A DNA stretch of 64,000 nt from Escherichia phage SUT_E520. Below are positions 15,666 through 59,863 of this stretch, piece by piece (position 1 is the stretch's first letter; each line of letters begins with the position of its first letter). The position numbers were made by a program, and so were the translations under genes. The stretch lies in sequence record OQ990040; one strand, 5' to 3'. The notes beneath the pieces were generated by a model, which was given only the letters and a program-made list of their open reading frames with translations, ran no database searches and was not told where the DNA came from.

Positions 15666-16094
15666 ATGTTCAATAATGTATTCTCTAAAGAAGCTAACCC
15701 AATTTTGGTTAACTTTTGGCGTACTCTTCCAGCTAGCCTGTATAATGAGGCTATTAACTCTTTGAAAATATGGTGTGAGAATAACGAAATCTACTTTGCT
15801 TTTAAAGATGATATTGATGAAGCCCCCTGTATTGGTTTAATTGTTCAGGTAGAGGAGGGTCTTGAAGAGATTGTCGGCTGGAAAGAGTTAGATGAAATGG
15901 GCTTAGTTTTTGCGTTAAACTATAAGCTGTTTATGCCTGCTAAGCATCGCCTCGTTGTTAACTATAAAACTAGTGAATCTCCTGGTTTTCAAGTTAATGA
16001 ACGTTACGGTTGGTCTTACTCACCAGAAGAAGTGAATGATGGTATCCAAAAACTTCGCCGTTTCGGGTATATGATCCCAGGTTTAACTGCTTAA
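15666..16094 (+). CDS. hypothetical protein, paralog 1 of a tandem pair
   Basis: Shares DEAPCIGLIV, ELDEMGLVFALNYKLFMP and C-terminal RFGYMIPGL with the next ORF. Confidence 0.5.
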   Translation: MFNNVFSKEANPILVNFWRTLPASLYNEAINSLKIWCENNEIYFAFKDDIDEAPCIGLIVQVEEGLEEIVGWKELDEMGLVFALNYKLFMPAKHRLVVNYKTSESPGFQVNERYGWSYSPEEVNDGIQKLRRFGYMIPGLTA

Positions 16095-16103
16095 GGAGGC
16101 AGA

Positions 16104-16493
16104 ATGGAACAAGTATATTGGCGTCAGATTGACCCTAGTTTGGTGAAACGTGCGGAGAAGCTGCTACAACGTTGGTTGGGGGTAAGACAAGCCTCCTTCA
16201 CTTTTCCTGAGCAGCAAATAGATGATCCATGCATTGGCGTTTTCCTGTCTGGATACGCCAGGGAATGGGAACTGGATTGGAATGAGTTGTCTGCTATGGG
16301 TTTAATTGTTGCCCTAAATTTCTCTTTGTTCCATCCACGTGGTTTTGCCATATGTCGTGTGCCGGATGATGGTTGTTCGCCCCATCTTTTACAGGTGGAA
16401 AATGATATTTGGGAGTACACTCCAGATATTCTCAAAGAAGCTAAAGAACAATTAAACCGTGTTGGGATATATGTTCCGGGATTAAATGACTAA
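16104..16493 (+). CDS. hypothetical protein, paralog 2 of a tandem pair
   Basis: DDPCIGVFLSG, ELSAMGLIVALNFSLFHP and C-terminal RVGIYVPGL; GGAGG RBS. Confidence 0.5.
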   Translation: MEQVYWRQIDPSLVKRAEKLLQRWLGVRQASFTFPEQQIDDPCIGVFLSGYAREWELDWNELSAMGLIVALNFSLFHPRGFAICRVPDDGCSPHLLQVENDIWEYTPDILKEAKEQLNRVGIYVPGLND

Positions 16494-16519
16494 TGATTTT
16501 TATTAGCTGAACTCTGATT

Positions 16520-16545
16520 ACCGAGTCATTTTGGCTCGGTTTTAT
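16520..16545 (+). terminator. rho-independent terminator after the paralog pair
   Basis: ACCGAG - 9-nt loop - CTCGGT followed by TTTTAT. Confidence 0.55.
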
Positions 16546-16587
16546 CCGTACTCAAGACCAATGATAGCACCATCCGGAAAATTTTAC

Positions 16588-16616
16588 TTGCAGGATGCTC
16601 AAAATCTTGATATAAT
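16588..16616 (+). promoter_or_regulatory. promoter firing into the 16,620-17,115 non-coding region
   Basis: TTGCAG - 17 bp - TATAAT followed by a leader (ATTTATATTGAATTGAGAGAT) resembling the conserved early leader. Confidence 0.5.
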
Positions 16617-16679
16617 ATTTATATTGAATTGAGAGATATTAGTAAAAATTGATTTTGCTAATTTTTCTTGTTTACAATC

Positions 16680-17010
16680 CGCGATACGGAACAGTTAGGC
16701 TGCCCAATTAAGGGTTGTTTTAACTGTTACGTGTTAGTTTTTAAACAAATAGTTAATAGAATACTTAGCGATCTGCGTCCCGTAGGAACCCTGGTAAGGC
16801 CTCGAAGCAACCTAGATAGAGGTGGTTGTGAAGTGAGACGGGAGGAGTGAAAAACTCCGAGACGTGATTCTGTAAGTTATATTGCATCTAGTATGAGCTA
16901 GTACATGAAGCATTAGGTGAGCAAATCTGGCTTAGCGGCCATCCTCAAGGATTTGTGCGGTATAGCAAAGCAGCAGCGCAGCGTGAAAGTGGAAGTTGCC
17001 ACCCCACTTC
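16680..17010 (+). ncRNA. candidate structured non-coding RNA or long 5' leader / origin-proximal element
   Basis: GC-richer block with several local hairpins (e.g. GGAGTGAAAAACTCC), no credible ORF (only a TTG-start 60-aa ORF without RBS), no tRNA T-loop. Confidence 0.3.
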
Positions 17011-17115
17011 AGTATTTGCGATTAATTTGTTGAGAAATTGACAGTAACAGTTGTTCTATTCTTTCTGAATAGTCCTAAAGAAAACTTATTTCATTTCCAA
17101 CACAGGAGTATTGTT

Positions 17116-19905
17116 GTGTTCTCAATCCTACAAGGTCATGCAGGATTTCATCGCGATTTAGCCACAGGCAATTGGCGAGAAGTTAAAGCAGAAGACTATC
17201 TTTTTGCTAAAAGATTTTCCTCAAAGCATCCTGAAGGTAAACCAGCTTCAATGCCCTTCAAGTTTGATGTAATTGATGAAGTTGATCCTCAAACCCTAGT
17301 AGAAATGCTTCCTCTTATGAGACGTTTAACGTCTGACCCTCATATCGTTGCGGTACGAGGTCGATGTCTTACACCTAAAAATAATGTGCGACGTAAGAAG
17401 GGCAACTTTAATGTATCTAACCCAAGTCATATAATTGCAATGGACGTGGATGGTATTGTAGATACAGGTGGTTGCAACAAGTTTGATCTTGTTGGCATGG
17501 CTCGACATATTATTAGAATGTTAAATAGTATTAGTGAGGATATGTTTCCTCTTGATGCAGGGTTTATCGCTCATGCATCGTCTTCGGCTGGGCTAAAACC
17601 AGGTATCCGAATGCACTTAATACTAGAATCTAATGTTAAAGTAACTCAGGGTCAAATCAAATTCTTATTTACATCTATCAACGAAAGTAGTAGACAAAAG
17701 TATGGCTTTGATATTGCCGACTTAGCTTATTACTCTTCCGTACAGCTCCACTATTTTGCAGATCCGTTATTTACCGATGGTATAGTAGATCCGTTTAAAG
17801 CGGAGGGTGCTTCACGTCTGGTATTTGTTAAGGGTTCTAAAGTAAATTTACCCAATAATCTGGTTGACTATGAAACAACTAGAGGTGAGTTTAAGGAGGA
17901 GTTTTACTCTTTACTCGATCAAATTAAAGGTAAAAAAGCTGCCTCTGATAAAGTAGAGGAAACTATCAGCGAACTAGAAGAAGCTGAGGATGGAGTGTAT
18001 CTACGTATCATACCTAAACTCTATCACAGAGCCTTAGAGGATGGTGTTGATTTTGCATGGCTAGAAAAAGAAATCCGTCCAGCCTTATCAGAATATATTG
18101 CAACTAAAGATAACAGTCGCAATATTCAAGATTACTTTAATAACGGTCGTAAACAGGCTCTGAAAGCATTTGTTAATAATTCTAAACGTGATATACCTGA
18201 TGTTTTAAAGGGTATTCCACTTAAAAAGCTAGAAACTAATTCTCTAGAAACTGATAACTTCTTGAAATTAAATACTGTACCACCAGAAGGTTATATGACT
18301 TTTGTAAAAGCAAGTCTAGGTACAGGTAAAACTACAGCGGTTGTGCGTTGGTTAGATTCAGGAGTTATTAAAGGTAATTTCTTAGCAATTACCAATACTA
18401 GAGCACTGGTATCTTCAAATGCCAAGAAATTTAGTGCAGGACAATATGATAAGTCTGTAGATATGCTTAATTTTAAGCGGGGTGCTATTGACCGTATGTC
18501 CACAACTATTCACTCTTTGCATAAATTCAAGAGTTTTATTGGTCAAATTGATGCAATCTTTATCGATGAATGTGATGCAGTAATGAATGACCTATTATTC
18601 GCCCCGGTTGTTAAACAACGTCGCGAGTGTATTCAGGTTCTTCGGGATATTCTTGCAACTGCAAAAATCATTATATTATCTGATGGGGATATTAGTGCAG
18701 AAACAATTGAAGCATATGGTTCTTTGATTGAGTTTGATAAACCAGTAGCATTTTATAACCATCACCGTAAAATGCTATCAAAAGCTCATGCTTATGAGTT
18801 CCCGGATGAATCCAGTATTTGGGTTGCACTTCAGACTTCTCTAGAGATGGGTGAGAAATCTATCCTAGTATCTGACTGTGGGCCGGATGAACTGAATGAG
18901 AAGGGTATGGCATTGCGTCGTAATACGGGTGCGTTAGTTAAGGAAATCCACTCAAATTCTACATCCGATGTAGATATTCGACGTATTCTGGATTACACAA
19001 CTAATGAGCTAATTGATCAACAAATTGATTGCTTATTATGTAGTCCATCCGTAACAAGTGGTGTTGACTTCAACTATTTTGATAACGTATTCGTTATTAC
19101 TAGAACCAGCAACCAAGCGCCAAACATGCGTTTCCAAGCAATCAGGCGCGACCGTGGCGCTCAGAACATTTATTATTTTATTGATAAATCTACGAGTGGA
19201 TTCTCCGCAGGTTCTGAGCAATATAACATTGACGAAGGTTGGCTGGAGTTAGCACAACAATTATACGCACGTCGTAGAGAGCTGGAATCTAGGAATTATA
19301 CTAGTACTTTACGTTATTACTTGCTTGATCAGGGTGCAACTATTGATATTTTCAGTGAAAGCTGGGGAACTATCGAAGGTGCTGGGAAGGAATATACGGA
19401 AGAGCGAATCAAAGCTATTTTATATTCAACTCCTGATTATTGTGCTCCACGTCATGCTGATGCGTATGAAGCTAAACTACTTCTTGTTCGCTACTATCAT
19501 CTTGAGTCTATTAAAGATGTAACAGTTGAGCATGTTGAACAATATATCAAGGATAAACCTAATGATCGAGCGGCATTCTTCCATAAAATGCACGAGATGT
19601 TCTGGGAAGATATTAAGAAGTGTTCAAATGTCACTATCAAACCATTCATAGAAGCTCTGAAAGGTAAGAAGAAAGATTTCTTCCTTAAAACAGGTCAGAG
19701 TGCTAACCCAAAATATGCCAGAATGTATCTTGGTATGATGGGTATTGGTAAGGATATGAACACTGAAAATATTGTAGACTGGTACAGAACCTATTGTAAA
19801 ATCGAGTGTATGCCAATCCCCTATAAGTTTATGACTGATGAGGAGAAACATATGCATGATGAAGCAATGGCAGAGCTAGGTGCTAGAAATGACAGTGAAG
19901 AATAA
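17116..19905 (+). CDS. putative replication initiation protein: N-terminal primase-polymerase (AEP-like) domain fused to C-terminal SF2-type helicase/origin-binding domain
   Basis: N-terminal IIAMDVDG (hhhDhD-like) and KPGIRMHLIL (sGxGxH-like); C-terminal Walker A GTGKTT, Walker B IFIDECD, helicase-like SPSVTSGVDF and QAIRRDRG. Start moved to GTG 17116 (AGGAG RBS 7 nt upstream); the track ORF from 17038 has an implausible N-terminus. Confidence 0.6.
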   Translation: MFSILQGHAGFHRDLATGNWREVKAEDYLFAKRFSSKHPEGKPASMPFKFDVIDEVDPQTLVEMLPLMRRLTSDPHIVAVRGRCLTPKNNVRRKKGNFNVSNPSHIIAMDVDGIVDTGGCNKFDLVGMARHIIRMLNSISEDMFPLDAGFIAHASSSAGLKPGIRMHLILESNVKVTQGQIKFLFTSINESSRQKYGFDIADLAYYSSVQLHYFADPLFTDGIVDPFKAEGASRLVFVKGSKVNLPNNLVDYETTRGEFKEEFYSLLDQIKGKKAASDKVEETISELEEAEDGVYLRIIPKLYHRALEDGVDFAWLEKEIRPALSEYIATKDNSRNIQDYFNNGRKQALKAFVNNSKRDIPDVLKGIPLKKLETNSLETDNFLKLNTVPPEGYMTFVKASLGTGKTTAVVRWLDSGVIKGNFLAITNTRALVSSNAKKFSAGQYDKSVDMLNFKRGAIDRMSTTIHSLHKFKSFIGQIDAIFIDECDAVMNDLLFAPVVKQRRECIQVLRDILATAKIIILSDGDISAETIEAYGSLIEFDKPVAFYNHHRKMLSKAHAYEFPDESSIWVALQTSLEMGEKSILVSDCGPDELNEKGMALRRNTGALVKEIHSNSTSDVDIRRILDYTTNELIDQQIDCLLCSPSVTSGVDFNYFDNVFVITRTSNQAPNMRFQAIRRDRGAQNIYYFIDKSTSGFSAGSEQYNIDEGWLELAQQLYARRRELESRNYTSTLRYYLLDQGATIDIFSESWGTIEGAGKEYTEERIKAILYSTPDYCAPRHADAYEAKLLLVRYYHLESIKDVTVEHVEQYIKDKPNDRAAFFHKMHEMFWEDIKKCSNVTIKPFIEALKGKKKDFFLKTGQSANPKYARMYLGMMGIGKDMNTENIVDWYRTYCKIECMPIPYKFMTDEEKHMHDEAMAELGARNDSEE

Positions 19906-58744: not shown

Positions 58745-59377
58745 TTATTCTTTAACGTAGCCTAAAGCTATCGCAAGTTTTTCTAGTTCAGAAAGATTAC
58801 GTTCTTGAGCTGGGACAGCTTTAGAACTTATTGCAGTAAAAGATTTACGCCATTCAGTATAATCATGACCATTCATACTCTTAGCGAGATTGAATGTTGA
58901 GTCCTGATTACAAGGTACAGAAACTACCGAAACTTCGTATAGTTCTAAATCTTTAATAATAAATATATCAGTAGCTTCATCCCACTCTGCATCTAGGCAG
59001 CGGAATCCGATACTAAAAGTTTTCAGTACACCGTTTTTAATTAGCGAAAAGATAGCCGGGTCAGAACTTTCATAGATCTCACATTCGATTTCGAGACCCA
59101 TTTCAGTAGGATTAAGATCAATACACTTGCCGATTGGACGACGATGGTCGTGTCCGAAAAGAATAATCGGGTTTTTCATGTAGTTAGCAAGTGCATTAGA
59201 TGTTTTCCATGCAGAGGCAGGAATTACATCACCAGCGCGATCTTTACTAATTGTATTAGCGAATCCACGGATTTTTACAACACCCTCTTTGGATTCGCTA
59301 TCAATAGATTTAATATAAGCATCTAAATGAACCGGTGCTGATTTTAACTTGTTATAGTCAATAGCAGCTTGTGTCAT
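58745..59377 (-). CDS. prohead maturation protease (pb11-like, 210 aa)
   Basis: Position between decoration and capsid genes; size matches T5 pb11. Confidence 0.75.
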   Translation of the reverse strand: MTQAAIDYNKLKSAPVHLDAYIKSIDSESKEGVVKIRGFANTISKDRAGDVIPASAWKTSNALANYMKNPIILFGHDHRRPIGKCIDLNPTEMGLEIECEIYESSDPAIFSLIKNGVLKTFSIGFRCLDAEWDEATDIFIIKDLELYEVSVVSVPCNQDSTFNLAKSMNGHDYTEWRKSFTAISSKAVPAQERNLSELEKLAIALGYVKE

Positions 59378-59380
59378 TTA

Positions 59381-59863
59381 TTAGCCTCCAACACCGGGAT
59401 TAACCGTTACTGTGCATGCAGTAGAAGGTTTACTAACTTTCTTGCTATCTGTAACCGTTACTTTATAGACTCCCGAATCATCAGTAGCTGCTGCAGGCTT
59501 AGTATAGGTAGCTCCTGAAGCATCTGGAATAGGAGAACCATCTTTAGTCCATGCATAAGTATAAGGACCAGTTCCGCCGGTTGCAGTAACAGAAAGTGTT
59601 AATGCTGTACCTTCTGTAATAGACATACTAGCAGTTAAATCTTTAGAAAGAGTTAATGGTGGAGCAGGAGGAACTGCTTTACCATAAGCCTCTACAAATT
59701 TCTTCCATACTTTACGGTTAGTATGCGCAGATGAAAGTCCTAGTTCTCTACGCAGAAAAGCATAGCTAGGAACATATTTATGCGCAGCAACCGTAGCAAA
59801 GAAGATATGAGATTCTGGTAGTTTTTCACCAAAAATGGTCTTTAGACCATTATAATCAATCAT
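59381..59863 (-). CDS. capsid decoration protein (pb10-like) with C-terminal Ig-like domain
   Basis: 160 aa; C-terminal TLSVTATGGTGPYTYAWTKDGSPI...GVYKVTVTD Ig-like motif. Confidence 0.7.
   Translation of the reverse strand: MIDYNGLKTIFGEKLPESHIFFATVAAHKYVPSYAFLRRELGLSSAHTNRKVWKKFVEAYGKAVPPAPPLTLSKDLTASMSITEGTALTLSVTATGGTGPYTYAWTKDGSPIPDASGATYTKPAAATDDSGVYKVTVTDSKKVSKPSTACTVTVNPGVGG

What the first reader, a model, noticed from the sequence alone, without database searches (positions are those of the whole stretch)
16494..17115. 620-bp non-coding region with its own promoter and a GC-rich structured core upstream of the primase-polymerase/helicase gene
This is the largest ORF-free stretch in the window. 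It starts with a terminator (16520-16545) and a promoter (16588-16616) with a leader resembling the conserved early leader, but the next credible start codon is 500 nt away (GTG 17116). The intervening 16680-17010 is visibly more GC-rich than its surroundings and contains several local hairpins, with no tRNA-like T-loop and no plausible ORF. It could be a structured 5' UTR, an independent small RNA, or a replication origin next to its initiator protein.
Basis: seen in the sequence. Interest (0 to 1): 0.65.

Follow-up and report, generated by a model that had tools for sequence, protein, structure and literature searches.

The report
Undescribed structured RNA before T5 helicase gene
The 620-base "empty" stretch in front of the replication primase-helicase gene (D2) of this T5-like phage encodes a large, intricately folded RNA of about 450 bases that is conserved by shape across several phage genera, matches no known RNA family, and probably works together with that replication protein.

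Summary
Window 16494-17115 is a real non-coding gap in a T5-like phage, equivalent to T5 58928-59544. It starts with a terminator and a T5 early promoter and ends at the GTG of D2.

I show D2 to be an AEP primase-polymerase fused to a UL9/Rep-like helicase.

The gap encodes a structured + strand RNA: leader hairpin L, hairpin P0, a ~330-nt core closed by a ~35-bp helix P1 (with P2-P6 inside), then hairpin P7 before the ribosome site.

Evidence for the fold:
- Five sequence types keep the same helices despite 35-54% core identity: two "alleles" in T5-like phages, two Pectobacterium types and one Klebsiella type.
- A covariance model built from allele A alone finds all the others full-length (E 1e-28 to 4e-7).
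- 94% of cells pair, and 47 of 62 pairs change on both sides.
- G-U pairs far outnumber A-C.

There is no conserved ORF, no Rfam hit, no E. coli homologue, no iterons and no prior description found.

The core allele is always co-inherited with the D2 allele but reassorts with upstream genes.

Function is inferred. Most likely it is a D2-linked RNA operator. Rivals are an origin pre-primer or an excised ncRNA.

The parts
16521..16545 (+). Intrinsic terminator of the upstream DUF7415 operon (7-bp stem CCGAGUC/GGCUCGG, 5-nt loop, U tract)
   Evidence: Read from the sequence. Annotated as a terminator at the equivalent T5 position. Conserved in alignment A1. Not called by the simple scanner.
16588..16616 (+). 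T5 early (host sigma-70) promoter: -35 TTGCAG 16588-16593, 17-nt spacer, extended -10 TGaTATAAT 16608-16616. The transcription start is inferred at about 16623.
   Evidence: Annotated promoter in T5 RefSeq. CTTGC...TATAAT is invariant across T5-like, Klebsiella, Pectobacterium and Providencia phages. The transcription start is inferred, not mapped.
16627..16673 (+). Leader hairpin L (about 20 bp; its 5' strand holds the shared early-leader GAGAGA)
   Evidence: Predicted in every type. 17 of 20 pairs change on both sides across five types, and 96-99% of cells are canonical.
16678..16714 (+). Hairpin P0, carrying the most conserved sequence island AUACGGAACAGUUAGGCUGCCC
   Evidence: 13 bp, 5 of them with double changes, for example GG/CC to AG/CU in the Klebsiella type. 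GGCUGC at 16698-16703 could pair with GCGGCC at 16935-16940; this is untestable because both are invariant.
16722..16764 (+). 5' strand of the long closing helix P1 (P1a 16722-16742, P1b 16746-16754, P1c 16759-16764)
   Evidence: Pairs with 17012-17052. Exact 9-bp repeat I13 plus I2. G-C to G-U to A-U series at AACUGUUAC/GUAACAGUU. The sequence is entirely different but still paired in My1, DU_PP_V and Providencia.
16768..16984 (+). Core domain closed by P2 (16768-16778 with 16976-16984). It holds P3 (16779-16842, with P3b 16802-16836), P4 (16844-16858), conserved J4/5 GAGACGUG (16859-16866), P5 (16876-16966) with P5a (16885-16919) and P5b (16921-16956), which includes the GGCUUAGCGGCC hairpin at 16929-16940.
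   Evidence: A covariance model from allele A only finds all other types full-length. 94.4% of cells are paired and 47 of 62 pairs change on both sides, against shuffled and slid controls. P2 exists in five sequence versions. The P2-to-P2 length is 206-215 nt in seven types. P3a (16788-16801) is not supported (47% paired).
16988..17008 (+). Hairpin P6, with loop AAGUUGCCACC conserved in four of five types
   Evidence: 6 bp, 5 with double changes. Loop motif comparison.
17012..17052 (+). 3' strand of the closing helix P1
   Evidence: See the 5' strand. 35 bp in total, with 26 pairs changed on both sides across types.
17056..17072 (+). Hairpin P7 (CUAUUC-UUUCU-GAAUAG), about 45 nt before the start codon; nearly invariant in T5-like phages
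17097..17118 (+). Small hairpin CAACA/UGUUG that presents the Shine-Dalgarno AGGAG (17104-17108) in its loop, followed by the GTG start (17116-17118)
   Evidence: An analogous ACAG/CUGU hairpin occurs in My1.
17116..19905 (+). D2 gene (929 aa): N-terminal AEP primase-polymerase domain plus a UL9/CyRepA-like SF2 helicase. Its allele (aa 1-600) is co-inherited with the RNA core allele.
   Evidence: Identity with the biochemically studied T5 D2 bipolar helicase rests on matching domain coordinates (PMC3632103) and the AY692264 annotation. Linkage.

Best explanation
Shown, at about 0.9 confidence:
- The gap encodes a functional structured RNA on the + strand.
- Host RNA polymerase is expected to start at a T5 early promoter (transcription start about 16623). 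It would transcribe a ~450-nt leader that folds into hairpin L, hairpin P0, a ~330-nt multi-branched core closed by the 35-bp helix P1, and hairpin P7, and then run on into the D2 coding sequence.
- Selection acts on the RNA fold, not on a protein or on double-stranded DNA.

Inferred mechanism, at about 0.4:
- The RNA is the cognate cis-acting partner of the D2 replication-initiator module.
- It would be an operator that D2, or another early protein, recognises through the invariant loops: P0 GGAACAGUUAGGCUGCC, J4/5 GAGAAGUG, P5b GGCUUAGCGGCC and the P6 loop.
- Binding would set how much D2 is made, through mRNA stability or translation from the nearby P7-SD segment.
- P1 would act as a double-stranded processing stalk, an RNase III-type site. 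Cleavage there would separate the core from the D2 message, leaving P7 at the new 5' end.

The specific binding partner, any cleavage and any effect on D2 level are all inferences.
For: Homology and conservation:
- The same gap, with the same length (leader 492-503 nt in 32 unique T5-like sequences), has invariant 5' and 3' parts.
- It is present with the same promoter and architecture in Klebsiella (Sugarlandvirus), Pectobacterium My1 and DU_PP_V, and probably in Providencia phages.

Structure:
- Alleles A and B are only 35-42% identical in the core but fold alike.
- A structure-only alignment scores 232.6, against a mean of 111 and a maximum of 175 for 20 dinucleotide shuffles, and it puts the conserved islands in register.
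- The five-type consensus has 142 bp, most with compensatory changes.
- A covariance model from allele A alone recovers DU_PP_V (102 bits), My1 (70), Klebsiella (35) and allele B (30 bits, E 4e-7). All hits are full-length and at the homologous site, with no other hit in 370 kb.
- 94.4% of cells are paired, against 75% when shuffled and 36-43% when slid. 47 of 62 pairs change on both sides, against 25.5 and 10-19. None of 500 shuffles reached any of the five measures.
- Compensatory pairs occur even within allele A.

Strand:
- 14-23 G-U pairs against 0-5 A-C pairs.
- alifold energies are -136/-126/-68 for + and -102/-93/-50 for -.

Not coding.

Cis link to D2:
- The RNA always lies directly upstream of D2, with no terminator between them.
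- The P7-SD segment is 85-97% conserved where synonymous sites are 72%.
- The core allele and the D2 allele agree in 33 of 33 loci, while the upstream genes are reassorted in at least 11 loci.
Against: - No transcript, processing or binding data exist here.
- In contig L291 a perfect consensus promoter lies between a (larger) structured region and D2. Yet the RNA is retained, which a pure D2-expression operator does not predict.
- 330-450 nt is far larger than known phage translational operators.
- The core-D2 linkage may be mere proximity: only about 70 conserved nt separate them, against more than 200 on the upstream side. Many of the loci are also near-duplicates.
- No conserved alternative pairing that would sequester the SD was found. 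The P0/P1 alternative (repeat I5) is not kept in other types.
- My structural alignment was optimised for structure, and the covariance-model alignment leans to the model. Both effects are controlled but not removed.
Confidence: 0.4

Rival explanations
1. Origin pre-primer. The structured transcript would work in replication initiation, like ColE1 RNA II or the R-loop origins of T4 (oriF/oriG) and T7. Transcription from the strong early promoter through the AT-rich leader would give an RNA whose fold promotes a persistent RNA-DNA hybrid or a defined 3' end. D2 (PrimPol-helicase), encoded next door and co-adapted with the core, would be loaded there or would extend the RNA.
For: - D2 has the make-up of an initiator: AEP PrimPol plus a helicase related to herpes UL9 origin-binding protein and to the plasmid Rep CyRepA1.
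- No T5 origin has been mapped at sequence level in the papers I could read.
- Origin and initiator are usually adjacent and exchanged as one module, as seen for core plus D2 aa 1-600.
- L291 keeps the RNA although D2 has its own promoter.
- The promoter is followed by a 28%-GC stretch and then a G-rich RNA, with GC skew +0.2 to +0.27.
- More distant relatives have an AT-rich non-coding region with conserved boxes at the same place.
Against: - No iterons or repeat families.
- No GC-skew inflection at this site; the sign changes lie near 12 and 40 kb of the window.
- No antisense promoter, that is, no RNA I analogue.
- Recombitron editing of T5 shows one consistent strand bias, read by its authors as dominant unidirectional replication from one genome end (PMC10055335).
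- An AEP primase needs no RNA polymerase primer.
- T4 and T7 origin transcripts are not highly structured.
Confidence: 0.25
2. Excised trans-acting RNA. P1 would be a processing stalk, like the RNase III stems that release 16S and 23S rRNA or cut T7 early RNA. It would free a stable core RNA of about 300 nt that acts elsewhere, as a ribonucleoprotein scaffold, a decoy for a host factor or defence sensor, or a ribozyme. Its place upstream of D2 would be only a convenient early transcription unit.
For: - P1a is a near-continuous 20-bp duplex in every type, extended to about 35 bp by P1b and P1c.
- The size, the many junctions and the invariant loops resemble RNP RNAs or ribozymes more than operators.
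- The core has been exchanged as a cassette and is far more diverged than neighbouring synonymous sites: 35-42% against 72%.
- An optional 89-nt extra domain occurs in 51 phages.
- L291 has a separate D2 promoter.
Against: - The RNA is never found away from D2 in any genome examined.
- There is no terminator or independent 3' end signal.
- The core allele never separates from the D2 allele.
- There is no similarity to any Rfam family, including ribozymes.
- No processing data exist.
Confidence: 0.2
3. DNA-level element. The conserved fold would be used by single-stranded DNA, as a single-strand initiation signal like RSF1010 ssiA/ssiB (recognised by the AEP-like primase RepB') or a plasmid sso. 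Alternatively the conserved islands would be double-stranded binding sites of an origin.
For: - D2 carries an AEP primase domain, and RepB' appears among the fold matches.
- Covariation alone cannot tell RNA from same-strand ssDNA.
- The element is adjacent to an initiator gene.
Against: - 12-16% of pairs are G-U, which would be weak G-T in DNA, with almost no A-C.
- A dedicated conserved promoter and 5' leader hairpin sit directly upstream, in the same orientation.
- Known ssi signals are about 40-150 nt, not 450.
- The conserved islands are not repeated.
- GCTTAGCGGC elsewhere in the window occurs at chance level.
Confidence: 0.07
4. No function of its own: a spacer whose apparent structure is an artefact, or a region coding for small proteins as several GenBank records annotate.
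For: - Short ORFs of 33-60 aa are annotated here in some records.
- Structure-optimising alignment can create spurious helices. Shuffles also gave many 'compensatory' pairs in the pairwise Sankoff alignments.
Against: - The ORFs differ between alleles, are broken within allele A and show no codon-position pattern.
- The length is constant to within 3 nt.
- The covariance model from one allele finds the others.
- All five measures beat all 500 shuffles and all slid controls.
- The element is conserved across genera whose D2 proteins are only 73-78% identical.
Confidence: 0.03

Closest known systems
ColE1 RNA II (plasmid replication pre-primer)
   Same: - A transcript of about 500 nt from a strong promoter.
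- A conserved multi-stem fold matters for function.
- It lies beside the replication functions.
- The element studied here is 495 nt from transcription start to D2 start and is co-inherited with the initiator allele.
   Different: - No antisense RNA I promoter.
- No mapped origin or RNase H site.
- No sequence or Rfam similarity.
- The transcript continues into a protein gene.
Long autoregulatory mRNA leaders (E. coli rne 5' UTR, about 360 nt; the L20 operator of rpmI-rplT with its long-range pseudoknot; T4 gene 32 and gene 43 operators)
   Same: - A structured 5' leader directly upstream of the regulated gene.
- Long-range helices.
- Conserved loops that could be protein-binding sites.
- A conserved ribosome-binding segment.
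   Different: - Much larger than the phage operators.
- No known RNA-binding activity of D2.
- No Rfam match to rne5 or any other leader.
- The L291 second promoter does not fit.
RNase III processing stalks (rRNA operon stems; T7 early RNA R sites; lambda N leader)
   Same: - A long-range duplex of 20 bp or more enclosing a folded RNA, within an early phage transcript made by host polymerase.
   Different: - Cleavage is untested.
- T7 sites are local hairpins of about 60 nt, not stalks around a 300-nt domain.
Large structured ncRNA classes of unknown or recently found function seen in phages (GOLLD, ROOL; also OLE, raiA, HEARO/omega RNA)
   Same: - Large size, many helices and covariation-supported structure.
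- Invariant loops.
- Phage-encoded.
- Discovered by comparative analysis.
   Different: - No covariance-model match to any of them.
- Different genomic context: always the 5' leader of a PrimPol-helicase gene.
- Restricted to Demerecviridae of Enterobacterales as far as sampled.
Single-strand initiation signals ssiA/ssiB of RSF1010 (recognised by the primase RepB')
   Same: - A strand-specific folded nucleic acid next to, or used by, an AEP-type primase.
   Different: - Those signals are about 40-nt DNA hairpins.
- The element here is 450 nt, transcribed, and rich in G-U pairs.

Membership tests
Any Rfam 15 family (including RNase P, tmRNA, 6S, group I/II introns, riboswitches, T-box, rne5, GOLLD, ROOL, HEARO, small ribozymes) | Covariance-model match at or near the family's gathering score | tested here: not met
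   The window scan at E<=10 gave only chance hits of 13-14 bits. All other sequence types scanned at E<=1 gave nothing in the element.
tRNA / tmRNA | Cloverleaf or tRNA-like domain detectable by ARAGORN | tested here: not met
   0 genes in the whole window.
RNase P RNA (lead from an eye resemblance of ACAGAAC..CCGGCU and GGCUUAGCGGCC to CR-IV/V) | Match to the RNase P models; P4 pseudoknot and conserved regions CR-I to CR-V | tested here: not met
   No RNase P hit at E<=10. The resemblance is from memory and is treated as coincidence.
Structured cis-regulatory mRNA leader | Consistently placed between a promoter and the same gene family, on the coding strand | tested here: met
   Upstream of D2 in T5-like, Klebsiella, Pectobacterium and Providencia phages, each with a conserved promoter.
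Structured cis-regulatory mRNA leader | Conserved secondary structure supported by covariation | tested here: met
Structured cis-regulatory mRNA leader | Expression platform: terminator/antiterminator or SD-sequestering alternative pairing | tested here: not met
   No terminator between the RNA and D2. The SD sits in a hairpin loop. The only alternative pairing seen (P0 with the P1 5' strand, repeat I5) is not conserved in other types.
Structured cis-regulatory mRNA leader | Effect on expression of the downstream gene; a ligand or protein partner | not testable with these tools
   Needs reporter fusions, D2 quantification and binding assays.
Transcript-primed origin (ColE1 RNA II / T4 oriF-oriG / T7 primary origin type) | Promoter followed by an AT-rich unwinding region, next to replication genes | tested here: met
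   A promoter at 16588-16616 is followed by a 28-31% GC stretch at 16600-16750. The D2 initiator gene lies downstream.
Transcript-primed origin (ColE1 RNA II / T4 oriF-oriG / T7 primary origin type) | Mapped start of DNA synthesis or a persistent R-loop at the site | not testable with these tools
   No origin map of T5 at sequence resolution in the papers read. Published strand-bias data argue against a dominant central origin.
Transcript-primed origin (ColE1 type) | Antisense regulator RNA (RNA I) with its own promoter | tested here: not met
   No promoter-like site on the - strand of 16300-17300.
Iteron-type origin (lambda ori, plasmid oriV, herpes oriS) | Repeated initiator-binding sites flanking an AT-rich region | tested here: not met
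   Only four two-copy direct repeats of 9-14 nt, at chance level.
Iteron-type origin | Compositional skew inflection at the origin | tested here: not met
   GC skew is positive on both sides. The sign changes lie near 12 kb and 40 kb of the window. This is a weak test in phages, where skew follows transcription.
RNase III processing stalk | Duplex of about two helical turns (20 bp or more) | tested here: met
   P1a is 20 bp, and P1b plus P1c add 15 bp. It is present in all types with different sequences.
RNase III processing stalk | Staggered cleavage in vivo that depends on rnc | not testable with these tools
   Needs 5'/3' end mapping in rnc+ and rnc- hosts.
Small protein-coding gene | ORF conserved in frame and length, with a third-position substitution bias | tested here: not met
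AEP primase-polymerase (for the N-terminal domain of the downstream protein D2) | Catalytic motifs DxD, sxH and hD on an AEP fold | tested here: met
   D110/D112, S155/S157/G159/H167 and D202 are invariant in 31 homologues at 25-78% identity. AF2 pLDDT is 87.9. The top Foldseek hits are all AEP enzymes, but weak (E 3e-3 to 0.1, TM 0.2-0.4). Activity was not tested.

The most novel reading that the evidence does not exclude
This could be a new class of large structured RNA that is the dedicated RNA cofactor of an AEP primase-polymerase/helicase replication initiator. One form of this is a folded pre-primer or loading platform that D2 recognises through the invariant loops, which would make T5-type initiation RNA-guided. 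Another is a catalytic or RNP-forming RNA excised from the early transcript. Either way it would be a replication-linked RNA with no counterpart among known phage systems.
Probability: 0.3. Interest if true: 0.85.

Novelty: new variant of a known kind. Interest (0 to 1): 0.72.

Why it matters
T5 is a classical model phage, yet its origin of replication and the control of its initiator D2 remain undefined at sequence level. This region has been annotated as empty, or as spurious small ORFs, since the genome was published.

A ~450-nt RNA with about 142 conserved base pairs is rare. RNAs of that size and complexity are usually ribozymes, RNP scaffolds or elaborate sensors.

If the RNA is D2's partner, it gives a direct handle on how a PrimPol-helicase initiator is regulated or targeted. 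The two natural, swappable alleles (A and B), each linked to its own D2 allele, are a ready-made specificity experiment.

Practically, it corrects annotations in hundreds of Demerecviridae genomes. It also flags a conserved element that phage engineers should not disrupt.

Tried and rejected
- **Rfam.** Scans of the window and of all other sequence types found nothing.
- **tRNA/tmRNA.** None found.
- **Coding potential.** Rejected.
- **MAFFT and profile-only structural alignment of the alleles.** These were poor. mafft-qinsi was unavailable. I therefore wrote a banded Sankoff/LocARNA-like aligner.
- **Automatic alignment of the Providencia type over the whole leader.** This failed. A core-only alignment gave 49 of 60 canonical pairs, so I call it a probable member, not a proven one.
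- **Pattern scans of genome contigs and metagenome contigs.** The pattern ACRGAACAGTNNGGCTGC was too loose. Absence outside Demerecviridae is therefore not established by those scans.
- **E. coli genomes.** No match in 5,426 complete genomes.
- **Riboswitch-like alternative pairing** of P0 with the P1 5' strand (repeat I5). Not conserved in other types, so rejected.
- **RNase P resemblance.** Rejected.
- **Iterons and skew as origin signals.** Absent.
- **A mobile-element reading of the 89-nt insertion.** It is single-copy per genome and always at this locus, so rejected.
- **Literature searches** for a T5 ncRNA, an origin map or a transcriptome. Nothing relevant found. Bourguignon 1976 is not held.
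- **The search for homologous proteins with only the N-terminal 400 aa.** It returned fragments; the full-length query worked.
Full report
**Where we are.**
- The window is a T5-like phage (Demerecviridae, Tequintavirus). The stretch 16494-17115 is 100% identical to Escherichia phage SUT_E1520 and has homologues in 537 phage records.
- It corresponds to T5 (NC_005859) 58928-59544. That lies between T5.107, one of two tandem DUF7415 genes, and T5.108, annotated 'replication origin binding'. The RefSeq record annotates only a terminator and a promoter at its 5' end.

**The observation.**
- The gap is real. The upstream gene stops at 16493, and the credible start of the next gene is GTG 17116 with AGGAG at 17104-17108.
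- 16494-17037 is the largest part of the window not covered by any ORF of 70 aa or more.
The promoter has -35 at 16588-16593 and an extended -10, TGaTATAAT, at 16608-16616.
- The promoter is conserved in four other genera.
- The TTGAGAG leader is shared with other early promoters of the window, including the one matching T5 P-N25.
- GC content rises to 0.44-0.46 in 16700-17050, against 0.28-0.35 just upstream.
- There are no tRNAs and no Rfam match.

**The downstream gene.**
- The 929-aa product has the Herpes_ori_bp signature at aa 394-533. These are the same coordinates reported for the biochemically studied T5 D2 bipolar helicase (PMC3632103), and AY692264 names the gene D2.
- Its helicase core matches the plasmid Rep family CyRepA1 and solved herpesvirus origin-binding proteins.
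- The N-terminal 390 aa had no family assignment. In 31 homologues at 25-78% identity, D110, D112, S155, S157, G159, H167 and D202 are invariant.
- An AlphaFold model (pLDDT 87.9) gives only AEP enzymes as its top Foldseek hits: LigD polymerase, ASFV and S-2L PrimPol, human PrimPol and RepB'. The scores are weak.

**Two alleles.**
- Aligning 11 and then 32 unique T5-like leaders shows a nearly invariant 5' part (about 16620-16735) and 3' part (about 17043-17115). Total length is constant at 492-503 nt.
- The central ~300 nt falls into exactly two groups. They are at least 85% identical within a group and 35-42% identical between groups.
- The window carries allele A and T5 carries allele B.
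- Flanking genes of the two phages are 88-92% identical, and third codon positions in D2 are 72% identical. The core is therefore far more diverged than neutral sites next to it.
- Core A is closer to Pectobacterium phage DU_PP_V (52-54%) than to core B (identification of L049).

**The structure.**
- RNAalifold on each allele separately gives the same plan.
- MAFFT cannot align the alleles and mafft-qinsi was unavailable. I therefore wrote a banded Sankoff-type aligner.
- With no reward for sequence identity, it aligns A to B with a score of 232.6. Twenty dinucleotide shuffles gave a mean of 111 and a maximum of 175, and reversed B gave 152. The conserved islands GAUCUGCGU, GGCUUAGCGGCC and AGCGCAGC fall in register.
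- A five-type alignment (A, B, DU_PP_V, My1, Klebsiella) gives a consensus of 142 bp. In window coordinates the helices are:
  - L: 16627-16673
  - P0: 16678-16714
  - P1: 16722-16764 with 17012-17052
  - P2: 16768-16778 with 16976-16984
  - P3: 16779-16842, including P3b
  - P4: 16844-16858
  - P5: 16876-16966, including P5a and P5b, with the GGCUUAGCGGCC hairpin at 16929-16940
  - P6: 16988-17008
  - P7: 17056-17072
- P2 alone exists as CUGCGU/GCGCAG, CUGUGU/GCACAG, CUACAC/GUGUAG, CUAGAA/UUCUAG and UGCUA/UAGCA. CUACAU/GUGUAG occurs within allele A.
- The distance between the P2 strands is 206-215 nt in seven types.

**Independent check with the supplied tools.**
- I built a covariance model from the 11 allele-A cores only (221 positions, 62 bp) and searched 370 kb of loci.
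- It found full-length matches at the homologous site, on the right strand, in:
  - DU_PP_V: 102 bits, E 1e-28
  - My1: 70 bits, E 6e-19
  - the Klebsiella type: 35 bits, E 2e-8
  - every allele-B locus including T5: 30 bits, E 4e-7
- There were no other hits.
- On the resulting alignment, 94.4% of cells pair. This compares with 75.0 +/- 0.7% after shuffling and 36-43% with the partner slid.
- 47 of 62 pairs change on both sides, against 25.5 +/- 2.6 shuffled and 10-19 slid.
- The covariation score is 0.438, against 0.152 shuffled and 0.04-0.09 slid. None of 500 shuffles reached any of the five measures.
- Only P3a is unsupported.
- Caveats: this alignment is fitted to the model, the sequences are related, and E-values from the short calibration are rough.

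**Which molecule.**
- The + strand folds better than the - strand in every data set: -136/-126/-68 against -102/-93/-50 kcal/mol. For the single sequence, z is -3.2 against -2.4.
- The helices hold 14-23 G-U pairs but only 0-5 A-C pairs.
- Together with the conserved promoter in the same orientation, this points to the + strand RNA rather than dsDNA. It argues against, but cannot exclude, + strand ssDNA.
- Small ORFs annotated here in several records differ between alleles, are frameshifted or stopped within allele A, and show no codon-position bias.

**Distribution.**
- The element, with promoter and leader hairpin, occurs in Markadamsvirinae, Sugarlandvirus, Myunavirus and DU_PP_V.
- Providencia-type phages (L042, L292) keep the promoter, L, a different P0, a P1 of new sequence, P2 and GCUUAGCGGCG. 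After core-only structural alignment, 49 of 60 consensus pairs are canonical, so I call them probable members.
- L291 (D2 66% identical) has a ~700-nt structured region with GCCUUAGCGGG and then a second consensus promoter just before D2.
- L293 (63%) has a shorter, unassigned leader.
- Phages with D2 at 46-51% identity have an AT-rich divergent intergenic region with conserved boxes and no such RNA. Vibrio phage D260 has no gap at all.
- There is no homologue in 5,426 complete E. coli genomes.
- My scans of the genome and metagenome collections used too loose a pattern. Apart from two phage contigs, they say little.

**Links to D2.**
- In 33 of 33 loci where both could be typed, the core allele and the D2 allele (nt 1-2000) agree. 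The two upstream genes are discordant with the core in at least 11 loci.
- The A/B divergence of D2 is confined to aa 1-600.
- Core plus the D2 N-terminal two-thirds thus behave as one cassette.
- This is what co-adapted partners would show. It is also what close physical linkage would show, because only about 70 conserved nt separate the two. Many of the loci are near-duplicates as well.

**What it is not.**
- It has no iterons and no skew inflection.
- It has no antisense promoter and no terminator between the RNA and D2.
- No conserved alternative pairing sequesters the SD.
- A T5 recombitron study reports a single strand bias, read as replication from one genome end (PMC10055335). Older electron microscopy reported multiple internal origins (cited in PMC3632103). 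I could not read that paper.

**Mechanism.**
- Shown: a conserved, strand-specific, covarying fold lying between an early promoter and D2.
- Inferred: the transcription start, continuity of the transcript with D2 mRNA, and everything about function.
- I put about 0.9 on 'functional structured RNA'. Within that:
  - About 0.4: a D2-linked cis operator. It would be bound by a protein at the invariant loops and would control D2 synthesis, with P1 as a likely RNase III stalk.
  - About 0.25: a ColE1-RNA-II-like origin pre-primer used by D2.
  - About 0.2: an excised trans-acting RNA.
- The L291 second promoter and the cassette behaviour pull towards the last two. The invariable position and the hyper-conserved P7-SD segment pull towards the first.

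**Novelty.**
- I found no description of this RNA in Rfam 15 or in the searchable literature.
- It is a new RNA family. Its broad kind, a large structured leader or ncRNA, is known. Its pairing with a PrimPol-helicase initiator is not.

Noticed in passing
L004:683-780 (Gostya9); the equivalent insertion point in the window is between 16660 and 16661: An optional 89-97-nt insertion, flanked by TTTTTCTT on both sides, sits between leader hairpin L and P0 in 51 T5-like phages (Gostya9, DT571/2, SP3, NR01, Yersinia phiR2-01 and others). It is single-copy per genome. I saw it in allele-A leaders (Gostya9, L017, L039) and in one allele-B leader (L025). It looks like an extra RNA domain rather than a mobile element.
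   Followed up: partly
L291:~700-1500: A metagenomic relative (D2 66% identical) has a structured region of about 700 nt (MFE -217 kcal/mol) behind its own consensus promoter. It contains GCCUUAGCGGG. A second perfect TTGACA-18-TATAAT promoter lies only about 45 nt before D2.
   Followed up: partly
L294:1132-1500, L295:1122-1500, L296:1074-1500: In phages whose D2 is 46-51% identical, the D2-upstream region is an AT-rich divergent intergenic region, with phoH on the other strand. It has conserved boxes AAGTTACGTGTG and CGCGCCTnAGAC and no structured RNA. This may be a classical origin or operator region.
   Followed up: no
window 17116-19905: The A/B divergence of D2 is confined to aa 1-600 (81-96% identity per 100-aa block). 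Residues 600-900 are 99-100% identical, and the last ~30 residues diverge again (57%). The variable cassette is therefore the RNA core plus the PrimPol domain and the first half of the helicase.
   Followed up: partly
L009:116-607 and L010:116-600: AKFV33 and KKP_3831 carry a putative homing-endonuclease gene directly upstream of the element, in place of the terminator and spacer. They have a different promoter sequence, but the leader is identical from GAGAGA onward.
   Followed up: no
window 16531-16632, 16668-16850, 16917-17033, 17038: Several GenBank records annotate 33-60-aa 'hypothetical proteins' inside the RNA, or start D2 at the upstream TTG 17038 or further upstream (for example PP407513, MH631454, HQ406778, MW006478). 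These ORFs are not conserved and are probably mis-annotations.
   Followed up: yes
window 15666-16094 and 16104-16493: Two tandem DUF7415 genes lie directly upstream of the element, in the same early gene block as the T5 genes annotated Sir2. Their alleles reassort freely relative to the RNA/D2 cassette.
   Followed up: partly
window ~12000 and ~40000: GC skew changes sign, from - to + near 12 kb and from + to - near 40 kb. This probably follows changes of transcription direction, and neither change coincides with the element.
   Followed up: no
window 16698-16703 and 16935-16940: The two most conserved islands, GGCUGC in P0 and GCGGCC in the P5b hairpin, are complementary (6 bp with one G-U; My1 has a C-to-U change that keeps a G-U pair). 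This could be a long-range tertiary contact, or two copies of one protein site.
   Followed up: partly
L293:1069-1500: A T5-like contig (D2 63% identical, with SIR2 and DUF7415 upstream) has a shorter 334-nt leader. It has the GAGAGAA leader hairpin and CAGUUAGGCAG but lacks GCUUAGCGG, and the allele-A covariance model does not detect it. It may be a reduced or different variant.
   Followed up: no
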